Shown: positions 36,185 through 55,374 of the stretch, one piece after another | Numbering within the stretch: position 1 is the first letter of the stretch | How the letters are laid out: every line of letters begins with the position of its first letter | Position numbers and translations under genes: made by a program | Source: Anaerolineae bacterium | GTDB lineage: Bacteria > Chloroflexota > Anaerolineae > DRVO01 | Direction: 5' to 3' | DNA: 64,000 nt | Assembly (NCBI GenBank): GCA_013178015.1 | Contig: JABLXR010000007.1 | Span: 37,682-101,681 of the forward strand | Notes under the pieces: generated by a model | Told to the model about the DNA's origin: nothing | Databases searched by the model: none | Seen by the model: only the letters and a program-made list of their open reading frames with translations

Positions 36185-36248
36185 CACGCTACCGTTGCTA
36201 ACACAGGAGTTGGGAAGTCCCGTGGCGTCGCGTCACCAGATCCCAGCT

Positions 36249-37403: not shown

Positions 37404-37584
37404 GTCCGGCACCCGACGAGGGTGAGTACCGTGCCGACGATGTGAGCCGGGGTCGCCCAGCACCCCGGGACCTGACGGCCATCGGGCGTCCACGGCACTG
37501 CGCGCGGCCTGCGTCCGCGCTGCTGCGTGGATTCTGTCGCTGATTCGGGAGCCTACGGAAGGCGTCTCCAAGGGAGGTCAGGCA

Positions 37585-38844: not shown

Positions 38845-38905
38845 GGAGTGGTGAGTACCACCGGGCACTCACCGCTCGTCACCCCCCAGCAAGGAGGAGC
38901 CTACC

Positions 38906-39967: not shown

Positions 39968-39971
39968 GGCT

Positions 39972-40083
39972 CGCCACAGAGACACGGAGGCACAGAGCGA
40001 TGGCCAATAGGGACCAGGCTGGGAGCGGCATGGCGACACCGGCTCTCGCTCGGTTCCGCTCTGTGTCTCTGCGACTCCGTGGC
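39972..40083. repeat. REP-like purine-rich imperfect palindrome (family core CACAGAGACACGGAG)
   Basis: Left arm ccacagagacacggaggcacagagcg (39973-39999) and right arm cgctctgtgtctctgcgactccgtgg (40057-40083), nearly reverse-complementary, immediately after the Gfo stop codon. Confidence 0.55.
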
Positions 40084-40095
40084 TGACCGGGAGGG

Positions 40096-41394: not shown

Positions 41395-41558
41395 CCACGC
41401 CGCGAGGATGAACGAGGTGCAAGGAAAGGAGGTGGTGTCGAGCTCGAGGGGCGCCGCGCCCGGCGCGAGGCGCCCAAGGTGGAGCGTCCGCTTCGCAGGG
41501 GAGTAAGTACAGCGTAGCTCCCGCCGTAAGCCAGCGACCTGGCGAGGAGGTAAGGCAG

Positions 41559-42938: not shown

Positions 42939-42979
42939 CGACGGGAGCAGCCCTCACCCGCCCTCTGCTCTCGGCCGCG

Positions 42980-43079
42980 AGGGGAGAGGGGGAGACGCGG
43001 CGACGGAGAGAGGGGGAGATACGGAGACAGGGGGAACGGGGCAGGACGGTTCTGCGCCTCTCCCTGTCTCTCCCTCTCC
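42980..43079. repeat. REP-like purine-rich imperfect palindrome between the binding-protein and permease genes
   Basis: gaggggagagggggagacgcggcgacggagagagggggagatacggagacaggg … ccctgtctctccctctcc. The stem-loop sits where differential expression of binding protein versus permease is usually set. Confidence 0.5.
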
Positions 43080-43123
43080 ATGACGGGTGAGGCCCACCGG
43101 AGGAGCAACCTAAGGAGGCTGAC

Positions 43124-44059
43124 ATGCAAGCGAGGGCCGTGGTAAGGGCCGGCAGGCGCAGGATGTCCCCTTCCGAGCGACGCGAGGCCATAGAGGGGTA
43201 CGTCTCCATCTCGCCCTGGCTCTTCGGGCTGGTCATCTTCACCCTCGGCCCCATTGTCGCTTCGCTCTACTTCAGCTTCACCGAATACGAAGTGGTCAAG
43301 ACGCCGGTCTTCATCGGGCTAGACAACTACCAGCGCCTGGTGGGAGACCGTCTCTTCTGGCAGTCGCTCAAGGTGACCGGCACCTATGTCGGAGTCTCGG
43401 TGCCGGTGGGCATCCTGCTGTCGTTCGCCGTGGCTTTGCTGATGAACCAGAAAGTGCGCCTTATCGGGTTCTTCCGCACGGCCTACTACATGCCCAATCT
43501 GGTGCCAGCGGTGGGTTCGGCCATCCTCTGGATCTGGATCTTCAACCCTGAGTTCGGTCTGCTCAACACCTTCCTCGCCAGCATCGGCATCCAGGGGCCC
43601 CTGTGGCTGGCTCACAGCAAGTGGGCCCTCCCGGCCCTGATCATCATGAGCCTCTGGGGCGTAGGAGGGGGGATGCTCATCTACCTGGCCGGCCTGCAGG
43701 GTATTCCCACGGACCTATATGAGGCAGCAGAGGTGGATGGCGCGGGGCAGTGGCGCCGGTTCCTTCACGTGACCGTGCCTCAGATGACGCCCGTGCTGTT
43801 CTTCAACTTGGTGATGGGCATCATCGGCAGCTTCCAGGTATTCACCGCCGGCTACATCATGACCGGCGGAGGGCCCCGATACGCCACCTACTTCTACGTG
43901 CTCTACCTGTATAACAACGCCTTCCAGTACTTCCGCATGGGATACGCCTCTGCCCTGGCCTGGATCCTGGCCATCATCATTCTCTTCTTCACTCTCCTGG
44001 TCTTCCGGTCGTCCAGTGCCTGGGTGTACTACGAGGGGCAACTGCGGGGGAGGGGCTAG
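43124..44059 (+). CDS. Sugar ABC transporter permease (MalF/UgpA-like)
   Basis: EAA loop LYEAAEVDGAGQWRRFLHVTVP and 6 TM segments. Confidence 0.85.
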   Translation: MQARAVVRAGRRRMSPSERREAIEGYVSISPWLFGLVIFTLGPIVASLYFSFTEYEVVKTPVFIGLDNYQRLVGDRLFWQSLKVTGTYVGVSVPVGILLSFAVALLMNQKVRLIGFFRTAYYMPNLVPAVGSAILWIWIFNPEFGLLNTFLASIGIQGPLWLAHSKWALPALIIMSLWGVGGGMLIYLAGLQGIPTDLYEAAEVDGAGQWRRFLHVTVPQMTPVLFFNLVMGIIGSFQVFTAGYIMTGGGPRYATYFYVLYLYNNAFQYFRMGYASALAWILAIIILFFTLLVFRSSSAWVYYEGQLRGRG

Positions 44060-44063
44060 ACAG

Positions 44064-44966
44064 ATGGCGAACACCGCGGCAGTCGCCAAGACCAGCACCC
44101 GGCCCACCGGCGCCAGAGCCTTCCTCGCCAGGCGCTCGGTTCAGAGGTACATCGGCAGGACGCTCATTTACCTACTCCTAGTAGCCGGGGCCGTCGTCCT
44201 CATGATGCCTCTGGCCTGGCTGCTCTCCAGCTCTCTCAAGCCTTCGGGGCTGATATTCGTGGTACCGCCCCAGTGGATTCCTGACCCCATCGCCTGGCAG
44301 AACTACGCCCAGGTCTGGGAGATGATCCCGTTCGGTCTCTACTTGCGGAACACCCTTGTGATAACCGTGTTCTGCATCATCGGAGCTTCGGCGTCAGCGG
44401 CGATTGTGGCCTTCGGCTTCGCTCGGCTTCGATTCCCCGGCCGGGACGTTCTCTTTCTAGTGCTGTTGAGCACCATCATGATCCCGGAACAGGTGACCCT
44501 CATCCCGACCTACGTGCTTTTCCGCATACTGGGCTGGCTGGATAGCTACTATCCCCTGATCGTGCCCGCCTTCTTCGGCGGCGGTGCCTTCAACATCTTC
44601 CTCCTGCGCCAGTACTACATGAGGTTGCCCCTCGAGCTGGACGACGCCGCCCGGATAGATGGCTGCAGCTCCTTCGGCATCTTCCGACGGATCCTGCTCC
44701 CGCAGTGTCGCCCGGCCCTGGGCGTGATCGCTATCCTGCTGTTCATGGGCAATTGGAATGGCTTCTTCCTGCCCCTCATCTACCTCAACTCGCCTGACAA
44801 GTACACCCTGGCTCTGGGCCTCAACCTGTTCCGCGGCACCCAGTACACCGCCTGGAACCTGCTCATGGCCGCTTCCACCATGGTGTCGCTGCCATGCATC
44901 GTGCTCTACTTCGTGGCCCAGAGATACTTCATCCAGGGCATCGTCTTCACCGGAATCAAGGGCTAG
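44064..44966 (+). CDS. Sugar ABC transporter permease (MalG-like)
   Basis: EAA loop ELDDAARIDGCSSFGIFRRILLP. Start at the ATG 44064 (MANTAAV…) with a GGGGAGGGG SD; the track ORF is extended by 16 codons. Confidence 0.8.
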   Translation: MANTAAVAKTSTRPTGARAFLARRSVQRYIGRTLIYLLLVAGAVVLMMPLAWLLSSSLKPSGLIFVVPPQWIPDPIAWQNYAQVWEMIPFGLYLRNTLVITVFCIIGASASAAIVAFGFARLRFPGRDVLFLVLLSTIMIPEQVTLIPTYVLFRILGWLDSYYPLIVPAFFGGGAFNIFLLRQYYMRLPLELDDAARIDGCSSFGIFRRILLPQCRPALGVIAILLFMGNWNGFFLPLIYLNSPDKYTLALGLNLFRGTQYTAWNLLMAASTMVSLPCIVLYFVAQRYFIQGIVFTGIKG

Positions 44967-44967
44967 C

Positions 44968-45120
44968 CACAGAGACACGGAGACACCGAGAGGGGGAGAG
45001 GGAGCGACACGGAGAAGCGCAAAGCACAGACAGTGAGAGAGGAAGAGACACCGACTTCACTCCCTCTCCGTGTCTCATTGTCTCCCCTTCTCTCCCTTAC
45101 TGTGCTTCCGTGTTTCGGTG
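44968..45120. repeat. REP-like purine-rich imperfect palindrome (largest family member, arms about 70 nt)
   Basis: ccacagagacacggagacaccgagagggggagagggagcgacacggag … ctccgtgtctcattgtctccccttctctccc, centred near 45055. Confidence 0.55.
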
Positions 45121-45141
45121 GCTGCCCCGAGGAGGCATCGG

Positions 45142-46308
45142 TTGGATGAGATACGCATAGCCGTTGTGGGACTCGGCTGGCGCGGCATCGGCACCTGGTT
45201 CGGCATCCTGCAGTCCATGCCAGGCTACCGTATCACTGCCATATGTGACCCGCTTGAGCAGCTGCACGAGAGGGCGGTGTCGCGGCTGAAGCGCCCGGAC
45301 GAGGTCAAGGTCTACACCCACTACGAGGACGTCCTGTCCGACGACAACGTTGACGCCGTGGCCCTCACCGTGCGCTGCCAGGAGCAGGGAGCCCTGGCCG
45401 CCATGGCCCTGGAGGCGGGCAAGCACGTCAACAGCGAGGTGCCGGCTTCTCACAGCATCGAGGACTGCTGGCGGATCGTTCTGGCCCAAGAGCGCTCGGG
45501 CAAGGTGTACCAACTGGCGGAACAGACACGTTACTGGGGCTTCGTGGAGGCCTGGCGCGAGATGGTGGCCCAGGGTCAGCTAGGCCACGTCACCCTGTGC
45601 GAGGGTCAGTACTTCCACTACTACGTGGGTCAGCACTTCCGCGATCGGGCCTCGGGGCGATTCCTGCATCCCAGCGAAGTGAGCCGCTACCCGGGAGCGG
45701 AGGGCACCTGGCTCAACCGCATGCCACCTATCCACTACCTCCCCCACGAGCTCAGCCCTATGCTTAAGGTCCTGGATGATCGGGTGACGCAGGTGGTGGC
45801 CATGAGCACCCGGGACCGGAGCTACGCTCATCCCCAGATCGAGACGGCCGACATGCAGATGGCTCTCATGAAGACCGAGAAGGATGCCATCCTCCGGATG
45901 GGAGTCTCCTTCTCTCAGCCTCACCCCGAGGCCAACTATCACTGGTATCACGTCATGGGGACGCTCGGCGCAGTGGAGTGGAAGCGGGCCAATCGAGACC
46001 GGCCCCGCATGTGGTTGGCCAACGCCCAGATGCACGACATGGCCGAGGTGGACTGGCGCTACGAGCGCACCGACGCCCCGGCGGAAGCGCGTGGCAGCGG
46101 TCACGGCGACGCCGACTACTACGTCCACGCCGCCTTTCGTGATGCCGTCCTGCAGGGCAAGCCCCTGGAGTTCGACGTCTACCAGGCCATGGACACGGCC
46201 GCACCCGCCATCCTGGCCGCCCAGTCCATCGCCGAGGGCAGCGTCCCACTGGAAGTGCCCGACTTTCGGCCTGGCAACGGCCGGGCCAGGGGCTCCGGGC
46301 CCAAGTGA
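45142..46308 (+). CDS. Gfo/Idh/MocA-like oxidoreductase with an extended C-terminal domain
   Basis: IRIAVVGLGWRGIG Rossmann motif. TTG start at 45142 with a GAGGAGG SD (6-nt spacing), giving MDEIRIAVVGLG…; the track extension is rejected. Confidence 0.7.
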   Translation: MDEIRIAVVGLGWRGIGTWFGILQSMPGYRITAICDPLEQLHERAVSRLKRPDEVKVYTHYEDVLSDDNVDAVALTVRCQEQGALAAMALEAGKHVNSEVPASHSIEDCWRIVLAQERSGKVYQLAEQTRYWGFVEAWREMVAQGQLGHVTLCEGQYFHYYVGQHFRDRASGRFLHPSEVSRYPGAEGTWLNRMPPIHYLPHELSPMLKVLDDRVTQVVAMSTRDRSYAHPQIETADMQMALMKTEKDAILRMGVSFSQPHPEANYHWYHVMGTLGAVEWKRANRDRPRMWLANAQMHDMAEVDWRYERTDAPAEARGSGHGDADYYVHAAFRDAVLQGKPLEFDVYQAMDTAAPAILAAQSIAEGSVPLEVPDFRPGNGRARGSGPK

Positions 46309-46331
46309 GCAGAGCGAGCGAGGAGAGTGCC

Positions 46332-47354
46332 ATGGCCGAGTACGGCATAGGCATCTGGGGAGCCGGATGGGTGGCAGGAGAGCACGCCCGCGCCTACACC
46401 AACAACCCCAAAGCTCGAGTGGTGGCGGTGGGCAGCCGCACGCTGGAAGGGGCCAGGCGGCGCATCGAGGAGTGGGGCATCGTCGGTTGCCGGGCCTACG
46501 ATGACCTGGAGGAGCTTCTGGCCCACCCGGAGCTGGACGTCGTTTCGGTGTGTACCCCCAACTACCGCCACGCCGCCGACGTGGTCGCCATCGCGTCGGC
46601 GGGCAAGCACATCCTCATCGAGAAACCACCCGCCACCGACCTGGAAGGCCTGCGGGCCATGCGGGACGCCGTCCGGCAGGCGGGCGTCAAGACGCTCGTG
46701 GGCTTCGTGTTACACTGGCACCCGCTGTTCCAGGCAGTGAAGCGGGTGGTCGCCGGCGGGCTATTGGGCCGGGTGATCATGGCCCAGCTGGATTACTGGC
46801 ACCGCCTGACCGCCGAGGACCAACTCCCCCTCTACGCCTGGCTGGTGAGTAGGGAGAAAGCGGGGAGCATCTTCCTGGCCGGCGGGTCCCACCCCATGGA
46901 CGCGGTGCGCTGGTTTCTGGGCGGCGAGATCGAGGAGGTTTGCGGCTACTCCACCGAGCCCTCGGGGGACTACGACTACCCCACCACCACCGTGGGACTG
47001 CTGCGCTTTCGGGATGGCGCCATCGCCAAGATCAGCGCCTGCGTAGAGGCCTACCTACCCTACACCTTCAACATCGACCTGCTGGGGGAAGAGGGTACCC
47101 TGCGAGACGAGCGCGTCTGCAGCCGCAAGCTGGGAGACGGTAAGGAATGGGTGGACCTGGGCGTGGCCGCTCCCCATAGCGGCGAGGTCAGCGCCCATCC
47201 CTTCCAAGCCGAGATCAACTACTTCCTGGACTGCCTAGACCGCGGCGTGGACTCGGAGATCAACCTGGAGGACGGGGTCAAGACCACCGAGGCCTGCCTG
47301 GCGGTGGACATGGCGGCGGTCTCGGGCAGGCCAGTGAAGCTGCCGCTGCTGTAG
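46332..47354 (+). CDS. Gfo/Idh/MocA-family oxidoreductase
   Basis: MAEYGIGIWGAGWVAGEHARAY…IEKPPA. ATG at 46332 with an AGGAG SD. Confidence 0.8.
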   Translation: MAEYGIGIWGAGWVAGEHARAYTNNPKARVVAVGSRTLEGARRRIEEWGIVGCRAYDDLEELLAHPELDVVSVCTPNYRHAADVVAIASAGKHILIEKPPATDLEGLRAMRDAVRQAGVKTLVGFVLHWHPLFQAVKRVVAGGLLGRVIMAQLDYWHRLTAEDQLPLYAWLVSREKAGSIFLAGGSHPMDAVRWFLGGEIEEVCGYSTEPSGDYDYPTTTVGLLRFRDGAIAKISACVEAYLPYTFNIDLLGEEGTLRDERVCSRKLGDGKEWVDLGVAAPHSGEVSAHPFQAEINYFLDCLDRGVDSEINLEDGVKTTEACLAVDMAAVSGRPVKLPLL

Positions 47355-47369
47355 CCCTGCCGCGAACCG

Positions 47370-47436
47370 GCCACAGGGACACAGAGGCACGGAGCACCAG
47401 AGAAGGAACCTCCGTCACTCCGTGCCTTGGTGGGAG
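47370..47436. repeat. REP-like imperfect palindrome (ccacagggacacagaggcacggag … ctccgtcactccgtgcc)
   Basis: Same core as the other family members, immediately after the Gfo stop codon. Confidence 0.5.
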
Positions 47437-47467
47437 TCACGACTAAGCACGAAGTGGAGCAGCCGGA

Positions 47468-48634
47468 ATGGGCAAGAAGGTCTACGATGATCGCGACATC
47501 GCTTACATCAAGCGCGTCCTCGACGAGCCGCAGGACATCACCGGCGCTAAGGTGGTGGCGGAGTTCGAGGAAAGATTCGCCGAGAAGGTCGGCTCTCGCT
47601 ACGCCGTGGCGGTGGCCAATGGCATGTGCGGCCTCCACACCCTGCTGGCGGCTGCCGGGGTGGGCCCGGCCGTCGAGGTCATCGTGGACCCCATCGTCCA
47701 GTTCGGCGCCCTCTCCGTGCTCTACAACAACGGCGTGCCCATTTTCGCCGACGTAGACCCCGCCACCCACAACATGGACCCCCGCTCCTTCGAGGAGCGC
47801 CTCACCCCCGACACCAAGGCGGCGGTGGTGACGCACCTGTGGGGGCTGCCGGCGGAGGTGGAGCAGATGCGGGCTGTCGCCGACAGGCAGGGGATAGTCC
47901 TGGTGGAGGACTGCGCCCACGCCCTGCTGGCCCAGCACAAAGGTCGGCGTGTGGGCACCTGGGGCCACGCAGCGATGTTCAGCTTCCAGGCCTCCAAGCA
48001 CCTTAGCACCGGGGACGGGGGGATGCTGACCACCAGCGACGAGGGCCTCCTCCAGGAGATCCGCTCCCTCATGAACTGGGGGGCGGCGCCGGACCGCATG
48101 GCCTACAATTTCCGCATGCCGGGGGTGGTGGCCGCCGTGGGGCTGGCCCAACTGGAGCGAGCGGACGACTACGTGCGGCAGGACATGCAAAGTGCCGAGC
48201 TGTACCATCAGGCCCTCGAGGGCTGTGAGTGGCTGGTGCCCCAGGTCGTTGCCCCCTACAACACCCACTCTCAGCACATCTTCGCCGTAGCCTTCCGGGG
48301 CGAGGAGCACGGCATTGACTACGAGGAGTTCAAGCGGGTGAGCCGGGAGGAGAAGGCCGGGCTAGGCTTCGGCTACACCCAGCGCACCTGGCGGGAAGCG
48401 CAGATCGTGGCCGCCTACCAGTTCCCCGTGTTCAAGGAGCCGGTGGCCTACGGCAAGGGCTGCCCCACCCACTGCCCTCACTACCGCAAGGACCTGCCCT
48501 ATCGTAACGGCTACTGCCCCAACGCCGAGGACCTGGTGCCGCGCCTGTGCCTCAGGGGCCTCAGCAGCGCTCTACCCGACGACATCGCCAGAGGGGCCGA
48601 GGGCCTGCGCCGGGCCATCGAGCGCGTGAGCTAG
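47468..48634 (+). CDS. DegT/DnrJ/EryC1/StrS-family PLP-dependent aminotransferase #4
   Basis: …AVANGMCGLH…, SFQASKHLSTGDGG with the PLP-lysine. Confidence 0.85.
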   Translation: MGKKVYDDRDIAYIKRVLDEPQDITGAKVVAEFEERFAEKVGSRYAVAVANGMCGLHTLLAAAGVGPAVEVIVDPIVQFGALSVLYNNGVPIFADVDPATHNMDPRSFEERLTPDTKAAVVTHLWGLPAEVEQMRAVADRQGIVLVEDCAHALLAQHKGRRVGTWGHAAMFSFQASKHLSTGDGGMLTTSDEGLLQEIRSLMNWGAAPDRMAYNFRMPGVVAAVGLAQLERADDYVRQDMQSAELYHQALEGCEWLVPQVVAPYNTHSQHIFAVAFRGEEHGIDYEEFKRVSREEKAGLGFGYTQRTWREAQIVAAYQFPVFKEPVAYGKGCPTHCPHYRKDLPYRNGYCPNAEDLVPRLCLRGLSSALPDDIARGAEGLRRAIERVS

Positions 48635-48779: not shown

Positions 48780-49640
48780 GTGACTTTGGACAAAGCGTAC
48801 ATCCGCGACGGGCTACGGGCTGGGGGCCTCTCGCCGGGGGACAGCCTGATCATGCACTGCTCCTTGAGCAGCCTCGGCCACGTCGAGGGAGGCGCCGATA
48901 CCCTCATAGACGCTGTCCTGGAGGCGGTGTCGCCTGGTGGCACCGTCATGATGCCCGCCCTTCCCGACATCTACCGGCCCTTCGACGTGCGCACTTCCCC
49001 CTCCACCGCAGGCCTGGTAAGCGAAGTCTTCTGGCGCCGGCCCGATGCCTTCCGCAGCCGGCACCCCAGCCATTCGGTGGCCGCCATCGGGCCGCAGGCC
49101 CGCTGGCTCACCGAGGGGCACGAGCACACCGACCCCACCGGCATCGGCAGCCCCTACCACAAGCTGTACCAACAGGAAGGATCGTGGGTGCTCCTGATCG
49201 GGGTGGACCACGACCGCAATACCATGCTGCACCTGGCGGAGGCACTGGTACGGGTGCCCTACCTGCGCACAAGTCAGCTGAGGGTAGTCAACCCGGACGG
49301 TTCCGCAAGCCACTACCGGGCCCGAGAGATGGCATACGGTCACCGGGAGTTCATCCGCATAGACTGGCCCCTTCGTGAGGCCAACCTCCAACGGCAGGGT
49401 ATCATCGGCAACGCGATAGTGCGGCTTATCCGGGTGCGCGATCTGGTGGACTTCGCCGTCCGGCTGCTGCGGTCCGACCCTGCGGCGCTCCTCTGCGACA
49501 AGCCCAGGTGCATCTTCTGCCTGTGGGCCCGGGCGCAGATCCGCTCCGCTCAGACGGGACAGCCGGACGAGACTGACTGGCCGGACTTGACGCGCCGCTG
49601 GGGCTGCGGCGACCCGCATTGCGAGTGCTGCGTCGTCTAG
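48780..49640 (+). CDS. AAC(3)-family (Antibiotic_NAT, PF02522-like) aminoglycoside N3-acetyltransferase homolog with a cysteine-rich C-terminal extension
   Basis: GDSLIMHCSLSSLGHVEGGADTLIDAVLEAVSPGGTVMMP, RSRHPSHSVAAIGP and TMLHLAEALVRVPY align with AAC(3)-II/IV signature blocks. GTG start with a GGGGAG SD. The C-terminal roughly 40 aa carry 7 Cys (CDKPRCIFC…CGDPHCECC). Confidence 0.8.
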   Translation: MTLDKAYIRDGLRAGGLSPGDSLIMHCSLSSLGHVEGGADTLIDAVLEAVSPGGTVMMPALPDIYRPFDVRTSPSTAGLVSEVFWRRPDAFRSRHPSHSVAAIGPQARWLTEGHEHTDPTGIGSPYHKLYQQEGSWVLLIGVDHDRNTMLHLAEALVRVPYLRTSQLRVVNPDGSASHYRAREMAYGHREFIRIDWPLREANLQRQGIIGNAIVRLIRVRDLVDFAVRLLRSDPAALLCDKPRCIFCLWARAQIRSAQTGQPDETDWPDLTRRWGCGDPHCECCVV

Positions 49641-49646
49641 CAGTTA

Positions 49647-49761
49647 CCGCGGAGACACAGCAAGAAGAAGAGGGGGAGAGGGGGAGACTGTGTGACGCGG
49701 AGATGCTCAAGGGCTGCTTGTCTCCGCGTCCCCGCGTCTCCCCATCACCCCCTCTCCCCCC
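49647..49761. repeat. REP-like purine-rich imperfect palindrome
   Basis: ccgcggagacacagcaagaagaagagggggagagggggagactgtgtgacgcggagatgc … gcttgtctccgcgtccccgcgtctcccc. Confidence 0.5.
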
Positions 49762-49815
49762 AATCCGGAGGGTGAGGCGTTGGCTGAGTTGCTGATGCCG
49801 GTAGGTGAGGTCGCC

Positions 49816-50556
49816 ATGAGGCGGCTGTGTGCGCCCCTGCCCATGATGCGAGGCTGGCGCGCCGCTGTGAAGCGGATCGCGGCCCTGGGTATCGGCACGG
49901 TGGAGCTGGGGCCAGAGTGGCTTCTCGAATCCAACCAGATCAGGGCGGCGGATCTCTCGGACGCTCTGGAAGACGCCGGGATCGAGGCGCGCATCGCCCG
50001 GCTGCCGGCGCCCCCGCTCCATCCCGGTGATCCAGGGCGTCTGCCCCTCTGGGATCTGGTCAGCCGTGCCGATCACTTCTTGCTGCCGAGCGGACAGCTC
50101 GGCCAGATGGCGCCCTCGATAAGCCTGATGGCGGAGATGGCGGAGGTATATCACACCGCCGGGGCGACGCTGCTGTTGGAGAACGACCCGGAAGCCTGGC
50201 CGCCCGATGGCCAGACTCTGGGCCGCTTCGTGGCCGAGGTCGGTCATCCGGGCCTGCTCTCCTGCTATGATCCTGCTCGTTCGGCGGCTCTCAAGAGGCA
50301 CCCCTTCCTGACCGACTTCCTGTCCGGCCCCCTCAAGCAGGGGATGCGCTGTCTGCGGCTGCGGGACGCCCTGTTCGAAAACGGCCGAGAGGTACGGCCG
50401 GGCGAGGGCAACGCCGAGCTGAAGGAACTGGTGTCGGCGCTGGAGTCTCGTCGCTACCAGGGGTGGTACATCCTCTCACCCTTCGGGCGAGGGCCTTATC
50501 CGGACCGGTTGCAGGCGGCCTACGACGCCGTGCGCGGGATCCTAGCCTCGCTGTGA
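49816..50556 (+). CDS. Xylose-isomerase-like TIM-barrel protein (sugar phosphate isomerase/epimerase family; IolE/IolI/MocC-like candidate)
   Basis: …AALGIGTVELG…LLLENDPE… The track starts at the TTG 49780; the ATG at 49816 with an AGGTGAGG SD (5-nt spacing) is preferred. Confidence 0.55.
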   Translation: MRRLCAPLPMMRGWRAAVKRIAALGIGTVELGPEWLLESNQIRAADLSDALEDAGIEARIARLPAPPLHPGDPGRLPLWDLVSRADHFLLPSGQLGQMAPSISLMAEMAEVYHTAGATLLLENDPEAWPPDGQTLGRFVAEVGHPGLLSCYDPARSAALKRHPFLTDFLSGPLKQGMRCLRLRDALFENGREVRPGEGNAELKELVSALESRRYQGWYILSPFGRGPYPDRLQAAYDAVRGILASL

Positions 50557-50689
50557 TGGGGAGGGTGTGCAGGTCTAGGGGCAGGACCCGTGCCTCCCCC
50601 ACAACCACAGTAGGACGGTGACAGTCTGGTCCAGGGCCCGCGCCCCCGCGTCGGCCCCCGACACCAGCGATGTCGTGGAGGTAGAACCG

Positions 50690-52411
50690 ATGGAGATTGT
50701 GGTCCTCACTCGTGCCCAGCAGCGCGTCAATACCTACGGGCGCTTCACCGCCGAAATACTTAAGACCGAGGGCCTTCACGGCTTTCGCCTCCAGCAATGG
50801 GAGGTGGGCTCGGATCCGCAGATCGGCGATGCCTCAGCGGTCATCCTCACTCCCGTCATCCTGCAGTATCCTGAGATAGACTGGCTGCGCGCCTACGTGG
50901 AAAGCGGCGGCAGGCTCATCGCCTTTCAGCCGATGGCTCACCTACTCGCCGCCTTCGGTGCCAAGTCCGAGAACAAGGCTCTGGTGGACGCCTACGTCAA
51001 GCCGGTGGGCATGTACCGCATCGGGCGCGCCATCGGCGGGGAGAGCGTGCAGTTCCACGGCTCCGCCACCAAGGTGTCCTTGCCGGAGGGCTGGGAAGTA
51101 CAAGCCTGGCTCTACTCCTCCCCGGAGGAGCGCACCCCCTACCCTGCAGTGGCCACCGGGAACGTAGGCCAGGGGACCTTCACCTTCTTCGCCTACGACC
51201 TCCCCGCTGTGGTGGCGGCCATCCGCCAGGGCGACCCCCGACTGGCCTATCAGTCTACCGCCGGCTTCGCCTCCGACCACCTGCAGCGCCCCAACGATCT
51301 CTTCACCGGGCACCTGGACCTCAGCCGGGGCCACATCCCCCAGGCCGACGTGCACTGCAACCTCCTCACCCACGTGCTCAACAGCGTGACCCGGGAGCCG
51401 CTGCCGCGCCTCTGGTACTTCCAGCGTCCCGAGCTGAGAAGCGTCGTGGTGATGACCAGCGACGACGACTGGTCCACCCTGGAGCAGTTCAGCGCCCTCA
51501 TCGAGGCGGTGGAGGAGGTGGGAGGACACATCCACGTCTTCATGGTGGAAGGGTCGCGCCAGTCCCCCGAGCAGGTACGGGAGTGGATCCGCCGCGGGCA
51601 TTCCTTCTCCGTGCACACCAATCCCCGCATCCGGGAGATAGACCCGTACTGGCACATGACTGAGTCAGTGCGACGGCACAAGGCCCAGGTCGAGGCCGAG
51701 TACGGTATGCCCTCGCGCATCTATCGCTCGCACTGCGTGCACTGGCAGGGCTACGTGGAGTCGGCCCGCATACTAGCCGACCTGGGGTTCCAGATGGACA
51801 GCAGCGTCATCAGCCTGCTGGACAACTGGGGCCTGTACGTCAACGGCTCGGGTAGGCCCATGCGCTTCGTGGACGAGCAGGGCGATATCATTGACCTGTT
51901 CGAGCAATCGGTCAACTTCTACGACGACGCTTCGGTGCAGAAGGTGCTGACGGGCGAGCCCGATACCGAGATCGCCCGGGCCACGCTGGCCCTGCGTGAG
52001 GCCGCCGATCGGTACCACACGCCCTTCGGCTTCCTTTCCCATCCAGTGAGCTTCTTCACCTACAGCAGCCCCTTCGTCAAGGGCGTGCTCCGGGCGGCCC
52101 ACGACATGGGCCTGCCCGTGCTCAGCGCCGACGAGTGGCTGGAGTTCACCCTGGCCCGTGACGCCGCCGGCATCCGCGATACCGCCTGGGACGGCCAGAC
52201 CCTCTCCTTCAGTGTCACCCGCGGGCGCGACGGCAGCGGGCTGACAGCCATGGCGCCGGTGCCCGAAGGCAGGAGCGCGGCGGAAGCCAGCCTGAACGGC
52301 CAGGAGGTCGAGCCCACCGTGCGCTCCGTGCACGGGCACGACTACGCCTTCGTACCGCTGCCAGCCGGCAGCACTGGCACCCAGAGCCAGGTGCGGGTAG
52401 TGTTCAGGTAG
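50690..52411 (+). CDS. Hypothetical two-domain protein (N-terminal ThuA/GATase1-like fold candidate; C-terminal carbohydrate-deacetylase/hydrolase-like)
   Basis: 574-aa ORF. ATG at 50690 with a GGAGG SD. No confident family assignment from sequence alone. Confidence 0.55.
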   Translation: MEIVVLTRAQQRVNTYGRFTAEILKTEGLHGFRLQQWEVGSDPQIGDASAVILTPVILQYPEIDWLRAYVESGGRLIAFQPMAHLLAAFGAKSENKALVDAYVKPVGMYRIGRAIGGESVQFHGSATKVSLPEGWEVQAWLYSSPEERTPYPAVATGNVGQGTFTFFAYDLPAVVAAIRQGDPRLAYQSTAGFASDHLQRPNDLFTGHLDLSRGHIPQADVHCNLLTHVLNSVTREPLPRLWYFQRPELRSVVVMTSDDDWSTLEQFSALIEAVEEVGGHIHVFMVEGSRQSPEQVREWIRRGHSFSVHTNPRIREIDPYWHMTESVRRHKAQVEAEYGMPSRIYRSHCVHWQGYVESARILADLGFQMDSSVISLLDNWGLYVNGSGRPMRFVDEQGDIIDLFEQSVNFYDDASVQKVLTGEPDTEIARATLALREAADRYHTPFGFLSHPVSFFTYSSPFVKGVLRAAHDMGLPVLSADEWLEFTLARDAAGIRDTAWDGQTLSFSVTRGRDGSGLTAMAPVPEGRSAAEASLNGQEVEPTVRSVHGHDYAFVPLPAGSTGTQSQVRVVFR

Positions 52412-52519
52412 CGCGGGGAGTGACGAGTGAACAGCCACGCTGGAACCGGAGAGGACATCGTCATAGGCGACGTGATCTACTGGGCCCTGGCGCTCGATCC
52501 ACGACGTGGAGGAGCACCT

Positions 52520-53101
52520 ATGGAGGCACCTGGGATGCAGGCCGCGGTGGTGCGGCTGTTCGCGCTGCTGGAGGAAAGGCAGATTCCCTACCTGCTGGTG
52601 GGAGGAATAGCCATGCTCCAGTACGTAGAGGGTCGGAACACCCAGGACATAGACCTGATCCTCGCTCTCGCTTCAACGCGCGAACTGCCCGAACTCCAGA
52701 TCGCCAATGAGGAGCTGTACTTTGCCACGGGCAGCTTTGGCGGCCTACCGGTGCACATACTGCTCACCCGCAACCCGCTGTTCGCTAAGGTCCAGCGTGA
52801 CTACGCCACTGAGAAGCGATTCGCTGGACAGCGCATCCGTTGCGTCACCGTGGAAGGCCTGATCCTGCTGAAGTTGTACGCGCTGCCGTCTCTCTACCGC
52901 CAGGGCGACTTCGTCCGCGTCGGCCTGTACGAGAACGACATTGCCTCCCTGATCGAGGAATACGACCCGCCCCTTGACCCGCTGCTAGAGGAACTACGTC
53001 CGTATCTGAGCGAGACCGACCTGAGCGCAGTGGAAGAGGTGCTAGAGGATATCCAGGGACGGGTGGACAGGTTCCGCCGGGGAATCGGGCCCGGGCAATG
53101 A
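52520..53101 (+). CDS. Nucleotidyltransferase-fold protein (MNT/AbiEii-like)
   Basis: LLVGGIAMLQYVEGRNTQDIDLIL matches the GG-x(n)-D-x-D nucleotidyltransferase signature. Two candidate ATGs (52520, 52535), both with GGAGG SDs. Confidence 0.5.
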   Translation: MEAPGMQAAVVRLFALLEERQIPYLLVGGIAMLQYVEGRNTQDIDLILALASTRELPELQIANEELYFATGSFGGLPVHILLTRNPLFAKVQRDYATEKRFAGQRIRCVTVEGLILLKLYALPSLYRQGDFVRVGLYENDIASLIEEYDPPLDPLLEELRPYLSETDLSAVEEVLEDIQGRVDRFRRGIGPGQ

Positions 53102-53111
53102 AGGAGGTCCT

Positions 53112-53912
53112 ATGGACACACCAAACCAAGGTTACATCATGGAGTTCATGACCGTGCGGGAGATGCGGGAGGCGCTGAGCAAGACGCGCACTGTCATCCT
53201 GCCCATGGGCGTGATCGAGCAGCATGGCTATCACCTGCCTCTCAACACCGACGTCTACAACTGCTACGAGATCGCCAAGCGGGTGGCGCCGGTGGCTGGC
53301 TGCGTGGTAGCCCCGCCCATCATGTACAGCTTCTCCGGCGGCGAGCTGCCGGGCACCACTGACATCAGCCCTCAGACCCTCTCTCTCCTCACCATGGACA
53401 TCATCAAGTCCCTGGCGAATCAGGGCTTCCGCAACATCATCATCCTGCTGGGTCACGGGGGAAGCGAGAACCAGCAGGCAGCCCTCGATGCCGCCGACAT
53501 GTTCTATCGCCGCAACGTCCGCTATCGCGACGTCCGCCTGGCCACCGTCACCTTCACCGACTTGACCCCCTCGGTGAAGGAGTGCTTCGCCGCCAAGGAC
53601 TTCCATGCCGGCTACCTGGAGACCTCTCTCATGCTCTACTGGCACCCGGAGCTGGTTCGCCCCAAGGAGCTGTGGGTGACGGACACGCCCGAGCTGATGG
53701 ACCTCTTCCGCCGCGACCAGGACGCGTATCAGACCAGGACGAAGCTGGTGAACCACCCGCTGGTAGTGCCGATAGTGACCCAGAACCCCGACACGAAGGT
53801 CGGCGTCATGGGCGACCCCAGCAACGCCAACGCCGAGTTCGGCCGCAAGGTCTGCCAGGAGGCGGTAGCCGGCCTGGTGGAGCTGATCCGCACTATGGAA
53901 GGCGCAGATTGA
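53112..53912 (+). CDS. Creatininase-family amidohydrolase
   Basis: …TVILPMGVIEQHGYHLPLNTD…LLGHGG… are typical creatininase motifs. AAGGAGG SD. Confidence 0.8.
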   Translation: MDTPNQGYIMEFMTVREMREALSKTRTVILPMGVIEQHGYHLPLNTDVYNCYEIAKRVAPVAGCVVAPPIMYSFSGGELPGTTDISPQTLSLLTMDIIKSLANQGFRNIIILLGHGGSENQQAALDAADMFYRRNVRYRDVRLATVTFTDLTPSVKECFAAKDFHAGYLETSLMLYWHPELVRPKELWVTDTPELMDLFRRDQDAYQTRTKLVNHPLVVPIVTQNPDTKVGVMGDPSNANAEFGRKVCQEAVAGLVELIRTMEGAD

Positions 53913-54007
53913 CGCGGGCATCCCCGGGACCCCGGTCACGGACGGCGAGCGCCGTTTCCCCGGGCCGCGGACCACTCGGGCCAGGGTTCGATGCCGTCGC
54001 CCTGGCG

Positions 54008-54646
54008 GTGGGAAGAGCGCTTCTGGCTCTTCTGGGCCTGGCACTGCTCTGGAGCATAGGGGCTCGGGTGGCCCGGCGCTTTCTGCGCTTCCCCACGCCC
54101 GCCTTTGTGGGCGCCCTGCTGGACAGCCCCTTTCGCCGGGCTCTGCAGCCGCCCGAAGAGGTGCTGGCGCCCCTCGGCATAGCCCCCGGCATGACGGTGC
54201 TGGAGCTCGGACCCGGCCCCGGGACCTATACCATCGAGGCAGCTCGCCAGGCCTCGCCTGGCGGTCGCGTCATCGCTGCCGATGCCCAGGCGGGCATGCT
54301 CGCCCGGCTGAGCCACAAGGTCCGAAGGCTGGGGATCACGAACGTGGAGCTTCGTCTGGCCGACGCCTACCACCTTCCGCTGCCGGACCAGAGCGTGGAC
54401 GTGGCCTTCATGGTGACAGTGCTGGCCGAGGTGCCCGACCGGGAGCGAGCCCTGGCAGAGGTCCGCCGGGTACTGCGCCCGGGCGGGCTCCTGGGAGTCA
54501 GCGAGTTCCTGCCCGATCCGGACTACCCGCGGCGGGCCACCGTGCGCCGCTGGGCCACGGCTGTAGGCTTCCAGCCCGAACGAGAGGCCGGAGGCTGTCT
54601 GTGGTACGTGCTCACCTTCCGTAAGCCCGGCCCCGAGGGCGAGTGA
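54008..54646 (+). CDS. Class I SAM-dependent methyltransferase with an N-terminal membrane anchor
   Basis: Motif I VLELGPGPGTY and a post-I acidic residue. Start uncertain (GTG at 54008). The longer track ORF overlaps the creatininase gene and is rejected. Confidence 0.55.
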   Translation: MGRALLALLGLALLWSIGARVARRFLRFPTPAFVGALLDSPFRRALQPPEEVLAPLGIAPGMTVLELGPGPGTYTIEAARQASPGGRVIAADAQAGMLARLSHKVRRLGITNVELRLADAYHLPLPDQSVDVAFMVTVLAEVPDRERALAEVRRVLRPGGLLGVSEFLPDPDYPRRATVRRWATAVGFQPEREAGGCLWYVLTFRKPGPEGE

Positions 54647-54666
54647 GAGGTAGGTAGGGAGGAGAC

Positions 54667-55374
54667 ATGCACGACCGATGGGCAAAGATTGGCGACACCT
54701 GGCACGTGGGCCGGGTGATTGACCTGACGGGGGACGTCTACAACGGCATGTGGCGCCTGCCCCCGCCCTACCCAGCGGTGGAGGTCAAGGAAATCCCCCT
54801 GGCCGGCAACTTCAACATCGTGGACTACGACATCTACGCCCAGGAAGTCCGCCTGCCGGTGCAGGCATCCACCTACCTGGAGACTGCCGCCCACATGTAC
54901 CCCGGCCGAGAGACGATAGACCAGCTGCCGCTCGAGCGGCTGCTGCCTTCCGCCGTGGTGCTGCGGATCCCGCGCGACCCCGAGGAGGTGATCACCGCCG
55001 AGGACATCGAGGAGGCCCTGGCCGCCACCGGAGAGACGGTCCGCCCAGGCGACGCCCTACTGCTCGCCACCGGCTGGGACAGTCACTGGGACGAGCCCGA
55101 CTTCATGAGCCGGTCGCCCCACTTCCGCTACTCCGCCGTGGACTGGGTGGTCCGGCACCGCTGCGGCATCCTCGGCTCCGACGCCGCCAACTGGAGCGAC
55201 CTCAGCGAGAAGCCCTCGTTCTTCCCCATGTTCTTCCGCTCGCCGACTCTGCTTCTGGCGCCTTTGGTCAACCTCGCCCAGGTGCCCGTGACCCGGGTGC
55301 AGTTGGTGGTCACCCCCCTGCGCATCCGAGGGGCCTGCGCCTCGCCCTGCCGCGTCCTGGCTCTGGTGCCATGA
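54667..55374 (+). CDS. Cyclase-family protein (kynurenine-formamidase-like fold) with a degenerate His motif
   Basis: AVVLRIP…GDALLLATGWDSHW and ILGSDAANWSD match the cyclase family. The HxGTHxDxPxH metal motif is not intact. Confidence 0.65.
   Translation: MHDRWAKIGDTWHVGRVIDLTGDVYNGMWRLPPPYPAVEVKEIPLAGNFNIVDYDIYAQEVRLPVQASTYLETAAHMYPGRETIDQLPLERLLPSAVVLRIPRDPEEVITAEDIEEALAATGETVRPGDALLLATGWDSHWDEPDFMSRSPHFRYSAVDWVVRHRCGILGSDAANWSDLSEKPSFFPMFFRSPTLLLAPLVNLAQVPVTRVQLVVTPLRIRGACASPCRVLALVP

What the first reader, a model, noticed from the sequence alone, without database searches (positions are those of the whole stretch)
48780..49640. AAC(3)-family N-acetyltransferase carrying a cysteine-rich C-terminal tail
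The protein aligns well with aminoglycoside 3-N-acetyltransferase signature blocks. Its last roughly 45 residues (CDKPRCIFCLWARAQIRSAQTGQPDETDWPDLTRRWGCGDPHCECCVV) add seven cysteines in CxxxCxxC…CxxxxCxCC spacing, a zinc-finger-like or disulfide-rich appendage that I do not recall in characterised AAC(3) enzymes. Its position as the last gene of the aminotransferase-rich island suggests it acts on an amino-cyclitol or amino-sugar metabolite rather than serving as a resistance gene.
Basis: partly seen in the sequence, partly recalled or inferred. Interest (0 to 1): 0.6.

Follow-up and report, generated by a model that had tools for sequence, protein, structure and literature searches.

The report
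AAC(3)-like acetyltransferase with second cysteine knuckle
This is a real, conserved AAC(3)-IV-like acetyltransferase gene: half of its "odd" cysteine tail is the known zinc site of that enzyme group, and the other half is a rare extra cysteine knuckle seen only in a small group of Anaerolineae enzymes that sit inside an amino-sugar/aminocyclitol-processing operon.

Summary
The ORF (48780-49640, +, 286 aa) and its 48-residue cysteine-rich end are real, in frame and under purifying selection. It is an Antibiotic_NAT/AAC(3) enzyme with an intact catalytic motif. Its closest characterised relative is AAC(3)-IVa (Group 1).

The tail has two parts:
[quoted passage not shown] The three Cys are invariant in 25 aligned homologs, ordinary 250-260 aa ones included.
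- **New part.** Residues ~256-286 form a loop and a helix, then C276-x4-C281-x2-C284. No solved structure or other protein family matches this segment. In 1.84 billion representatives it occurs in three AAC(3) clusters; all named sources are Anaerolineae MAGs. It co-occurs with a clade-specific Cys27, a candidate fourth ligand, so a second structural metal site is likely but unproven.

In all six tail-bearing loci with usable flanks (window included) the gene lies in one conserved operon; 0 of 5 tail-less relatives do. The operon encodes a ROK regulator (seen in the window), an ABC importer, DegT aminotransferases, IolG-like oxidoreductases, a TIM-barrel protein, an Agd3-like deacetylase and amidohydrolases. 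The gene is not the last in the island.

This favours a metabolic role over resistance, on circumstantial evidence. Verdict: new variant of a known kind, moderate interest.

The parts
48780..49640 (+). Gene for a 286-aa Antibiotic_NAT (AAC(3)-IV-like, Group 1-like) N-acetyltransferase; GTG start, TAG stop
   Evidence: ORF. Pfam PF02522 E=7.9e-59. NCBIfam AAC_3_IV 163 bits, below the 420 cutoff. PDB AAC(3)-IVa E=7e-38. AF2 pLDDT 96.6. GC3 0.84-0.90.
48858..48860 (+). Cys27, next to the family-conserved His26; clade-specific and a candidate fourth ligand of the second Cys cluster
   Evidence: Cys in 12/13 tail-bearing sequences against 1/90 tail-less homologs, which mostly have Ser. Its role as a ligand is inferred, not shown.
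49221..49241 (+). Catalytic motif TxΦHΦAE (T148-M-L-H151-L-A-E154)
   Evidence: Located. H151 and E154 are nearly invariant in 103 homologs. The motif is defined in PMC8956665.
49341..49343 (+). His188, the presumed fourth ligand of Zn site 1; it replaces the Cys187 used by most Group 1 homologs
   Evidence: The tail clade has G187-H188 where 45/90 other homologs have C187-S188. It aligns to the H-C-C stretch of AAC(3)-IVa.
49494..49520 (+). Cys239-x4-Cys244-x2-Cys247: the known Group 1 C-terminal Zn2+ site (site 1)
   Evidence: Aligns to His241/Cys247/Cys250 of AAC(3)-IVa (the residue numbering is my inference from the chain offset). The C3H1 Zn site is described in PMC8956665. Invariant in 25 homologs.
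49545..49637 (+). Clade-specific extension (residues ~256-286) beyond the AAC(3)-IVa C-terminus: loop, helix 267-274, terminal coil
   Evidence: Absent from tail-less homologs. Predicted with 10-residue-block mean pLDDT 91-98 to residue 280 and 83 for the last 6 residues. No PDB relative at E<1. Only AAC(3) proteins matched in 1.84e9 representatives.
49605..49631 (+). Cys276-x4-Cys281-(Glu282)-x-Cys284: second Cys triad (site 2), with the same C-x2-P-x-C-x2-C pattern as site 1; Cys283 is variable
   Evidence: C276, C281, E282, C284 and V286 are invariant in 13 sequences; position 283 is C, V or I. Metal binding is inferred.
49669..49755 (.). Intergenic G/A-rich imperfect palindrome downstream of the stop codon (35-nt arms, 83% complementary)
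   Evidence: RNA fold -67.4 kcal/mol, z=-3.2. Related copies at 42978-43028 and 44990-45098. No intrinsic-terminator pattern and no Rfam hit.
36117..48634 (+). Upstream part of the operon: ROK regulator (36117), DegT aminotransferases (37585, 40096, 47468), GFO/IolG-like oxidoreductases (38906, 45070, 46305), CUT1 ABC solute-binding protein and two permeases (41559-44966). A further DegT gene lies at 33360-35180.
   Evidence: Pfam. NCBIfam. PDB best hits. Synteny.
49780..55374 (+). Downstream part of the operon: xylose-isomerase-like TIM barrel (49780-50556), 573-aa Agd3/CE4-like deacetylase (50690-52411), creatininase-family (53112-53912) and cyclase-family (54667-55374) amidohydrolases
   Evidence: Pfam. 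NCBIfam. AF2 plus Foldseek. The same order is found in L001, L002, L005 and L007.

Best explanation
The gene encodes an acetyl-CoA-dependent N-acetyltransferase of the Antibiotic_NAT family, closest to the AAC(3)-IV / 'Group 1' branch, with intact catalytic residues.

Its cysteine-rich end is two things joined together:
1. **The Group 1 C-terminal extension.** Its structural Zn2+ site is built here from His188 + Cys239/244/247. The His and Cys roles are swapped relative to AAC(3)-IVa.
2. **A further ~31-residue extension.** It is found only in a small Anaerolineae clade and ends in a second Cys-x4-Cys-x2-Cys knuckle (C276/C281/C284). This knuckle most likely binds a second structural metal ion, probably Zn, with clade-specific Cys27 (or Cys117/120 in one sub-branch) as the fourth ligand. 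That would staple the new helix-loop onto the catalytic domain next to a remodelled substrate pocket.

The enzyme is a dedicated component of a conserved import-and-processing operon for an amine-bearing glycoside or cyclitol. It acetylates an amino group of that substrate or of a pathway intermediate. It is not a stand-alone antibiotic-resistance determinant.

**Shown:** family membership, fold, motif conservation, rarity, synteny.
**Inferred:** metal binding by the second cluster, the fourth ligand, the substrate class, and whether the pathway is catabolic.
For: **Family and fold:**. The catalytic TxΦHΦAE motif is intact.

**Site 1 is known:** PMC8956665 describes the AAC(3)-IVa C-terminal extension (residues 236-257) as a helix plus a C3H1 Zn site conserved in Group 1, and reports that C247S/C250S abolishes resistance. 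The query aligns through that segment. C239/C244/C247 are invariant in 25 homologs.

**Site 2 is clade-specific and selected:**
- Its residues are invariant in 13 sequences.
- Synonymous substitutions and in-frame GC3 support translation.
- The tail is folded with high confidence, with 10-residue-block means of 91-98 up to residue 280.
- Cys27 is present in 12/13 tail-bearing against 1/90 tail-less sequences.
- It shares the C-x2-P-x-C-x2-C pattern with the Zn-binding site 1 (direct reading of the sequence).

**Not a mobile module:** a tail-only profile finds only AAC(3) proteins in 1.84e9 representatives and nothing in the PDB.

**Operon link:**
- 6/6 tail-bearing loci share the core DegT-AAC(3)-TIM block; the loci with enough flank also show SBP and GFO upstream and the deacetylase, creatininase and cyclase genes downstream. 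Gene overlaps suggest translational coupling.
- 0/5 tail-less relatives share this context.
- Three loci add an Eis-like acetyltransferase directly upstream.

**Substrate class:**
- The DegT neighbours are most similar to scyllo-inositol transaminase (231 bits) and 2-deoxy-scyllo-inosose aminotransferase (275 bits, full length).
- The GFO enzymes' best NCBIfam hit is IolG.
- The 573-aa neighbour resembles the carbohydrate de-N-acetylase Agd3.
- The solute-binding protein is a CUT1 oligosaccharide type.

**Pocket change:** the AAC(3)-IVa aminoglycoside contacts D67/E185/D187/C190/E249 correspond to Y65, a variable position 183, A185, H188 and F246. Most clade-specific residues cluster at these positions.
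Against: - No coordinates were available, so the Cys-Cys geometry of the model could not be measured. Metal binding by C276/C281/C284 and the identity of the fourth ligand are therefore untested.
- Cys27 is Ser in the P0015/P0122 sub-branch. The Cys117/Cys120 pair that this branch carries also occurs in a tail-less protein, P0052. The ligand assignment is not clean.
- None of the neighbouring enzymes reaches an equivalog cutoff, so the substrate is unknown.
- An operon with both acetyltransferases and a deacetylase has no obvious simple logic.
- All Group 1 enzymes tested so far confer broad aminoglycoside resistance (PMC8956665), so this enzyme may well acetylate aminoglycosides too.
- The pocket-residue mapping rests on a 37%-identity alignment.
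Confidence: 0.6

Rival explanations
1. It is an ordinary environmental aminoglycoside-resistance enzyme (a Group 1 AAC(3)). The tail is a neutral or merely stabilising decoration, and the operon context is either incidental or reflects self-protection while an aminoglycoside-like compound is imported.
For: The best characterised relative is AAC(3)-IVa. Every Group 1 member tested confers broad resistance, including to apramycin (PMC8956665). An Eis-like acetyltransferase, another aminoglycoside-modifying family, is adjacent in 3 loci. Pipelines annotate it as AAC(3).
Against: - The NCBIfam AAC_3_IV score is 163 against a cutoff of 420.
- Four of the five AAC(3)-IVa aminoglycoside-contact positions have no conserved equivalent residue.
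- Synteny is strict in 6/6 loci, with overlapping genes.
- No mobile-element context was seen.
- The hosts are Anaerolineae MAGs, at least one from an anaerobic membrane bioreactor (record title). Anaerobes take up aminoglycosides poorly (established knowledge), which weakens selection for resistance.
Confidence: 0.2
2. The eight Cys/His residues (C27, H188, C239, C244, C247, C276, C281, C284) bind an iron-sulfur cluster or act as a redox-sensitive switch, rather than forming two inert structural Zn sites. Acetyltransferase activity would then respond to redox state.
For: The Cys count and spacing would allow it. The hosts are probably anaerobes, where Fe-S proteins are common (inference). The clade-specific Cys27 sits next to the family-conserved His26.
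Against: The homologous first triad binds Zn2+ in the AAC(3)-IVa crystal structure (PMC8956665). No Fe-S family signature appears in Pfam or NCBIfam. Nothing in the operon suggests redox chemistry on this protein.
Confidence: 0.1
3. The operon is biosynthetic: it makes an N-acetylated aminocyclitol or amino-sugar metabolite. The AAC(3)-like enzyme would then be a tailoring or self-resistance enzyme of a producer.
For: GFO-dehydrogenase and DegT-aminotransferase pairs are the standard route from inositol to inosamines in streptomycin-type biosynthesis (established knowledge). The DegT best hits are biosynthetic 2-DOI and scyllo-inositol aminotransferases.
Against: - A solute-binding-protein-dependent ABC importer and a ROK-type regulator head the cluster.
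- No 2-deoxy-scyllo-inosose synthase, glycosyltransferase or exporter was found among the genes scanned between 33 and 58 kb.
- Hydrolase/amidohydrolase genes and an IolN-like protein fit breakdown better.
Confidence: 0.1

Closest known systems
AAC(3)-IVa and Antibiotic_NAT 'Group 1' enzymes (PDB 6MN3/6MN4/6MN5; Stogios et al. 2022, PMC8956665)
   Same: Same fold (TM 0.81/0.89, 36-38% identity). Same catalytic TxΦHΦAE motif. Same C-terminal extension, with a helix and a four-ligand Cys/His Zn site built on a CxxC pair.
   Different: - It scores far below the AAC(3)-IV equivalog cutoff (163 against 420 bits).
- The Zn ligands are permuted: His188 and Cys239 here, where AAC(3)-IVa appears to use a Cys in its H-C-C stretch and His241.
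- The aminoglycoside-contact residues D67/D187/E249 are replaced by Y/A/F.
- It carries ~31 extra C-terminal residues with a second Cys-x4-Cys-x2-Cys triad and a matching Cys27.
- It is operon-embedded rather than stand-alone or mobile.
Non-resistance Antibiotic_NAT members: FrbF (FR-900098 phosphonate biosynthesis, PDB 3SMA), and YokD / BA2930
   Same: Same fold and family. These are precedents for family members that serve a metabolic pathway, or whose physiological role is not clinical resistance.
   Different: They belong to other branches of the family (E about 1e-24). They have no Group 1 C-terminal Zn extension and no Cys-rich tail.
Cyclitol/aminocyclitol pathways built from GFO/IolG dehydrogenases, TIM-barrel enzymes and DegT aminotransferases: iol (including Thermotoga-type IolG/IolM/IolN/IolO), moc rhizopine catabolism, and the StsC/BtrR steps of aminoglycoside biosynthesis
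   Same: The enzyme families in the neighbourhood are the same: IolG-like GFO oxidoreductases, a xylose-isomerase-like TIM barrel, a creatininase-family protein with a weak IolN match, and DegT enzymes closest to inosose aminotransferases.
   Different: No neighbour reaches an equivalog threshold. The transporter is a CUT1 oligosaccharide type. The operon adds acetyltransferases and an Agd3-like deacetylase. No described pathway with this gene set was found in the literature searches.

Membership tests
Antibiotic_NAT / AAC(3) family (PF02522) | Pfam domain above the gathering threshold | tested here: met
   199.5 bits against a cutoff of 25; residues 24-230 cover profile positions 1-231 of 232.
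Antibiotic_NAT / AAC(3) family (PF02522) | Catalytic TxΦHΦAE motif (general-base His plus Glu) | tested here: met
   T148-M-L-H151-L-A-E154. H151 and E154 are at least 90% conserved in 103 homologs.
Antibiotic_NAT / AAC(3) family (PF02522) | Antibiotic_NAT fold (major and minor subdomains) | tested here: met
   AF2 pLDDT 96.6. The top 50 Foldseek hits are all Antibiotic_NAT-family structures (AAC(3) enzymes, BA2930, YokD, FrbF), with E down to 6e-26.
Antibiotic_NAT / AAC(3) family (PF02522) | Acetyl-CoA-dependent acetylation of the 3-amino group of aminoglycosides | not testable with these tools
   Needs an enzyme assay or MIC testing.
AAC(3)-IV (NCBIfam NF033081 equivalog) | Score at or above the curated equivalog cutoff | tested here: not met
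   163.3 bits against a cutoff of 420.
AAC(3)-IV (NCBIfam NF033081 equivalog) | Conservation of the AAC(3)-IVa aminoglycoside-contact residues (Asp67, Glu185, Asp187, Cys190, Glu249) | tested here: not met
   By the phmmer alignment they correspond to Y65, E183 (variable within the clade), A185, H188 and F246.
Antibiotic_NAT Group 1 (Stogios et al. 2022) | C-terminal extension with a helix following the core domain | tested here: met
   The alignment to AAC(3)-IVa runs to residue 251. A helix is predicted at 245-259.
Antibiotic_NAT Group 1 (Stogios et al. 2022) | Four Zn2+ ligands (C3H1) in or next to the extension | tested here: met
   H188, C239, C244 and C247 are available, and the three Cys are invariant in 25 homologs. 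The His and Cys positions are swapped relative to AAC(3)-IVa. The geometry could not be measured.
Antibiotic_NAT Group 1 (Stogios et al. 2022) | Broad-spectrum aminoglycoside resistance, including apramycin | not testable with these tools
   This is a phenotype and needs expression in a susceptible host.
Inositol/aminocyclitol catabolic operons (iol / moc type), as the context of the gene | Equivalog-level IolG, IolN or related enzymes among the neighbours | tested here: not met
   IolG 158 and 143 bits against a cutoff of 355; IolN 81 against 245; creatininase 128 against 235. Family-level resemblance only.
2-Deoxystreptamine aminoglycoside biosynthetic clusters, as the context of the gene | 2-Deoxy-scyllo-inosose synthase and glycosyltransferases alongside the aminotransferase | tested here: not met
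   None was found among the genes scanned between 33 and 58 kb. Only the aminotransferase resembles BtrR-type enzymes.

The most novel reading that the evidence does not exclude
The tail-bearing clade is the dedicated N-acetyltransferase of a so-far undescribed pathway in Anaerolineae. That pathway would import and dismantle, or salvage nitrogen from, an aminoglycoside-like pseudo-oligosaccharide or aminocyclitol. This would be a native metabolic role for an AAC(3)-type 'resistance' enzyme. The second Zn knuckle would have evolved together with a remodelled, less acidic substrate pocket to fit that substrate.
Probability: 0.3. Interest if true: 0.65.

Novelty: new variant of a known kind. Interest (0 to 1): 0.4.

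Why it matters
The physiological roles and evolutionary origins of aminoglycoside-modifying enzymes in environmental bacteria are largely unknown. This clade is a Group 1 AAC(3) relative, the branch that includes the apramycin-resistance enzyme AAC(3)-IVa. It is locked into a conserved metabolic operon and carries its own structural add-on.

If the operon's substrate can be identified, it would give a concrete, testable example of what such enzymes do outside resistance. It would also show how the Group 1 C-terminal Zn extension can be elaborated to retune the substrate pocket.

On its own, the tail is a modest structural variation and not a new principle.

Tried and rejected
- **Frameshift or mis-assembly of the 3' end:** rejected. 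The tail is conserved, with a matching C-terminal ending and stop position, in independent assemblies. Synonymous changes and in-frame GC3 fit translation. The palindrome lies after the stop codon.
- **Tail as a mobile zinc-finger module shared with other proteins:** rejected. The tail-only profile found only AAC(3) proteins plus two low-complexity repeat false positives, P0123 and P0124. It found nothing in the PDB.
- **Disulfide-rich appendage:** judged unlikely. There is no signal peptide, so the protein should be cytoplasmic (direct reading of the N-terminus).
- **Measuring Cys-Cys distances in the AF2 model to define the second site:** not possible. Coordinates are not exposed and /data holds only FASTA files.
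- **AFDB50 fold search:** the library was unavailable.
- **Literature search for a described aminoglycoside or aminocyclitol catabolic operon of this type, or a two-Zn AAC(3):** nothing found.
- **Eis-like gene in the window, as in L001, L005 and L007:** absent.
- **Rfam or terminator explanation for the downstream palindrome:** none.
- **Cys117/Cys120 as the alternative fourth ligand in the Ser27 sub-branch:** unresolved, because the tail-less P0052 also has this pair.
Full report

Yes. The window has an ORF at 48780-49640 (+), with a GTG start and 286 codons. The protein has eight cysteines, at positions 27, 239, 244, 247, 276, 281, 283 and 284, so seven fall in the last 48 residues. The second is C-x4-C-x-C-C.

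The frame is clearly coding. GC3 is 0.84 in the body and 0.90 in the tail, against 0.66 and 0.63 for the tail in the other two frames. That matches the other genes of the window.

The identical protein exists in NCBI as 'MAG: AAC(3) family N-acetyltransferase [Anaerolineae bacterium]'.

**2. Family assignment**

- Pfam PF02522 (Antibiotic_NAT) matches at E=7.9e-59 over residues 24-230.
- The best NCBIfam model is AAC_3_IV, at 163 bits against an equivalog cutoff of 420.
- The best solved relative by sequence is AAC(3)-IVa (6MN3, E=7e-38). The next is AAC(3)-Xa at 3e-27.
- An AlphaFold2 model built on 103 homologs has mean pLDDT 96.6. It superposes best on AAC(3)-IVa, with TM 0.81 normalised to the query and 0.89 to the target, rmsd 2.2 Å and 36-38% identity.
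- The catalytic TxΦHΦAE motif is intact as T148...H151...E154 (the motif is defined in PMC8956665).

So it is a genuine member of the family. It is closest to the AAC(3)-IV / 'Group 1' branch but is not an AAC(3)-IV equivalog.

**3. The tail is two different things**

*First triad: already known.* The phmmer alignment to AAC(3)-IVa runs through the first Cys triad. The query's C244-I-F-C247 aligns with the enzyme's C-E-E-C (Cys247/Cys250), and the query's C239 aligns with a His.

Stogios et al. 2022 (PMC8956665) describe this segment of AAC(3)-IVa (residues 236-257) as a C-terminal extension forming an α-helix and a C3H1 Zn2+ site. [quoted passage not shown] They also note that a C247S/C250S mutant made by another group abolishes resistance.

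In my alignment of 25 homologs, including ordinary 250-260-aa proteins at 38-46% identity, C239, C244 and C247 are invariant. Among 90 tail-less homologs the commonest ligand pattern is C187 + C239/C244/C247, in 45 sequences. AAC(3)-IVa-type patterns (Cys...His...Cys...Cys) also occur.

The clade studied here has G187-H188 in place of C187-S188 and Cys in place of the AAC(3)-IVa His. It therefore still offers three Cys and one His, with the positions exchanged. The first half of the 'novel' tail is a known feature.

*Second triad: new.* Residues ~256-286 extend beyond the C-terminus of AAC(3)-IVa and of typical homologs. They are present in P0002-P0012 and P0015, in P0121 and P0122, and in the fragments P0013, P0014 and P0016.

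In 13 aligned tails, W249, D263, W267, G275, C276, C281, E282, C284 and the C-terminal V286 are invariant. C283 varies (C, V or I). Every sequence read to its C-terminus ends ...C-x-V, except P0121, which carries two extra residues.

Against five homologous loci the 39 tail codons show 10-16 synonymous and 8-17 non-synonymous differences, with the stop at the same place. This is translated sequence under purifying selection.

The model predicts helix 245-259, a loop, helix 267-274 and a terminal coil. The 10-residue-block mean pLDDT is 91-98 up to residue 280, and 83 for the last six residues.

Both Cys triads read C-x2-P-x-C-x2-C (CDKPRCIFC and CGDPHCECC). This is a pattern-level resemblance that could reflect a duplicated knuckle. 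I did not test that.

**4. How unusual is the second part?**

A profile of the 39-residue tail was searched, without a word index, against 1.84 billion 50%-identity representatives. It found five proteins at E≤1e-3. Three are AAC(3) proteins or fragments (P0016, P0121, P0122). Two are cysteine- or repeat-rich false positives.

The same profile finds nothing in the PDB at E<1. At 90% clustering, the 17 closest clusters (P0001-P0017), which make up the tail-bearing clade, hold about 58 member sequences.

A scan of one genome per species found only three loci, all in Anaerolineae MAGs.

So the extension is rare, is restricted to one lineage as far as named sources show, and is not a module shared with other protein families.

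**5. What might complete the second site?**

I compared the 13 tail-bearing sequences with 90 tail-less ones. Cys27 is the clearest co-occurring residue: Cys in 12/13 against 1/90, where Ser is the norm. It sits next to His26, which is conserved in at least 90% of 103 homologs. Cys27 is therefore my candidate fourth ligand.

The assignment is not clean. The P0015/P0122 sub-branch has Ser27 and instead carries a CxxC at positions 117/120. The tail-less P0052 also has that pair.

The other clade-specific residues are P62, D63, D145, R146, M184-A185-Y186-G187-H188, K241, F246 and W249. They cluster at the positions that, by alignment, correspond to the aminoglycoside contacts of AAC(3)-IVa:
- D67 corresponds to Y65.
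- E185 corresponds to a variable position.
- D187 corresponds to A185.
- C190 corresponds to H188.
- E249 corresponds to F246.

This suggests the substrate pocket was remodelled, becoming less acidic, along with acquisition of the tail. That is an inference from a 37%-identity alignment.

**6. Genomic context**

The island is real:
- DegT-family aminotransferases at 33360, 37585, 40096 and 47468.
- GFO/IDH/MocA oxidoreductases at 38906, 45070 and 46305.
- A ROK regulator at 36117.
- A CUT1 ABC solute-binding protein and two permeases at 41559-44966.

The gene is not the last one. The cluster continues with:
- a xylose-isomerase-like TIM barrel (49780);
- a 573-aa protein (50690-52411);
- a creatininase-family protein (53112);
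- a cyclase-family protein (54667).

The core order DegT - [GFO] - [Eis-like Acetyltransf_9] - AAC(3) - TIM recurs in all five tail-bearing homolog loci I could inspect: L001, L002, L005, L006 and L007. The downstream ~575-aa, creatininase and cyclase genes follow in the four loci that extend that far. Several gene boundaries overlap or abut. The short contig of P0122 also shows an overlapping downstream gene whose N-terminus resembles the TIM barrel.

Five tail-less relatives (P0018, P0038, P0040, P0025, P0022) sit in unrelated neighbourhoods. Tail and operon therefore go together: 6/6 (window included) against 0/5.

**7. What the operon may handle**

- Among solved structures, the DegT at 37585 is closest to a glutamine-scyllo-inositol transaminase (7B0D, 231 bits).
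- The DegT at 40096 is closest to L-glutamine:2-deoxy-scyllo-inosose aminotransferases (5W71/2C7T, about 275 bits, full length).
- The DegT at 47468 is closest to perosamine synthase.
- Two GFO enzymes have IolG as their best NCBIfam hit (158 and 143 bits). The creatininase-family protein has a weak match to IolN, the 3-dehydro-scyllo-inosose hydrolase (81 bits). All are below their cutoffs.
- The 573-aa protein is modelled at pLDDT 93.9. It resembles the carbohydrate de-N-acetylase Agd3 (E=4e-16), then the NDST1 N-deacetylase domain and CE4 deacetylases.
- The solute-binding protein resembles oligosaccharide binders such as Lmo0181 and GacH.
- No 2-deoxy-scyllo-inosose synthase, glycosyltransferase or exporter was seen.

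An importer plus a repressor-type regulator favours uptake and processing of an amine-bearing glycoside or cyclitol over biosynthesis. The substrate is unknown, and the coexistence of acetyltransferases and a deacetylase is unexplained. I found no paper describing such an operon or a two-cluster AAC(3).

**8. Most likely mechanism**

The enzyme transfers acetyl from acetyl-CoA to an amino group, using the His151/Glu154 dyad. This is shown only by homology.

Zn site 1 (H188/C239/C244/C247) holds the Group 1 C-terminal helix against the hairpin that lines the substrate cleft, as in AAC(3)-IVa. This is inferred from the alignment and from PMC8956665.

The added segment folds back as a second helix. 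It is pinned by a second metal knuckle (C276/C281/C284 plus C27 or an alternative). That would rigidify or cap a pocket adapted to the operon's substrate. This step is inferred.

I put about 0.6 on this overall picture:
- about 0.65 that the second cluster binds a structural metal;
- about 0.6-0.7 that the physiological substrate is an operon metabolite rather than an antibiotic.

Rivals are a plain resistance enzyme (0.2), an Fe-S or redox-switch reading (0.1) and a biosynthetic tailoring role (0.1). These address different aspects and are not fully exclusive.

**9. Novelty and verdict**

Half of the feature is already described in the literature. The other half is a rare, lineage-restricted elaboration of a known structural element on a known enzyme family, so this is a new variant of a known kind.

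The more interesting aspect is the strict coupling of this clade to an uncharacterised amino-glycoside/cyclitol operon. That could give a testable native function for a Group 1 AAC(3) relative. Interest is 0.4.

Noticed in passing
window 49669-49755; also 42978-43028 and 44990-45098: A family of G/A-rich imperfect palindromes (GAGGGGGAGAGGGGGAGAC-like) sits in three intergenic gaps of the operon. There are 8 motif matches against 0.08 expected. The copy after the AAC(3) stop folds at -67.4 kcal/mol (z=-3.2). It is not a canonical terminator and has no Rfam match. It may be a REP-like element or an mRNA-processing or stability element.
   Followed up: partly
L001 8620-10008; L005 4154-5458; L007 1216-2508: In three of the five syntenic loci, an Eis-like acetyltransferase gene (PF13527, Acetyltransf_9; 430-462 aa) lies immediately upstream of the tail-bearing AAC(3), overlapping or abutting it in two of them. 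The window has no such gene (tblastn negative). Two aminoglycoside-modifying-enzyme families are thus found side by side in a metabolic operon.
   Followed up: partly
window 50690-52411 (+): A 573-aa protein with no signal peptide, conserved across Chloroflexota and some Actinobacteria. AF2 pLDDT is 93.9. The best structural match is Agd3, the CE18 galactosaminogalactan de-N-acetylase, followed by NDST1 and CE4 enzymes. It has an N-terminal DUF4350/GH42-like domain. It has no PDB sequence hit and no NCBIfam model.
   Followed up: partly
window 37585-38844 and 40096-41394 (+): Among solved structures, two DegT aminotransferases are closest to scyllo-inositol transaminase (7B0D) and to 2-deoxy-scyllo-inosose aminotransferases (BtrR type, full-length, ~275 bits). 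No DOI synthase is present in the cluster. The direction of the reaction (amination or deamination) is unknown.
   Followed up: partly
window 52427-53101 (+) and ~53950-54646 (+): A 224-aa ORF with a weak NTP_transf_5 hit, and a class I SAM methyltransferase domain (Pfam hit in the 53582-54646 ORF), lie between conserved operon genes. Both are absent from the syntenic loci L001 and L002, so they look like window-specific insertions.
   Followed up: no
alignments A1/A2, query positions 187/188/239: Group 1-like homologs vary in how they build the first Zn site: C187+C239 (all-Cys) in about half, an AAC(3)-IVa-type Cys/His arrangement in a few, and G187-H188+C239 in the tail clade. The His and Cys ligands seem to have swapped positions during evolution.
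   Followed up: partly
P0015, P0122, P0121 (tail-bearing sub-branch); P0052 (tail-less): A sub-branch has Ser27 instead of Cys27 and carries a CxxC at positions 117/120, in the loop after the conserved His114. The tail-less P0052 has the same CxxC plus G187-H188. This hints at yet another Cys/His arrangement in this family that I could not explain.
   Followed up: partly
L013 300-4956 (context of tail-less homolog P0022); L011 (P0040): Some tail-less relatives also sit next to amino-sugar genes. P0022 follows an NAD-dependent epimerase/dehydratase, a CE4 deacetylase, a GT2 and an ArnA-like formyltransferase, which is an Ara4N-like set. P0040 lies between NanE and LPS heptosyltransferases. Non-resistance roles may be common in this branch.
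   Followed up: no
window 23029-26337 (-), 27739-30000 (-), 30146-32136 (-): Upstream of the island there are a second CUT1 ABC transporter set, a URO-D-like gene, a hybrid histidine kinase/response regulator, and two further permease genes. The region is rich in sugar-uptake systems.
   Followed up: no
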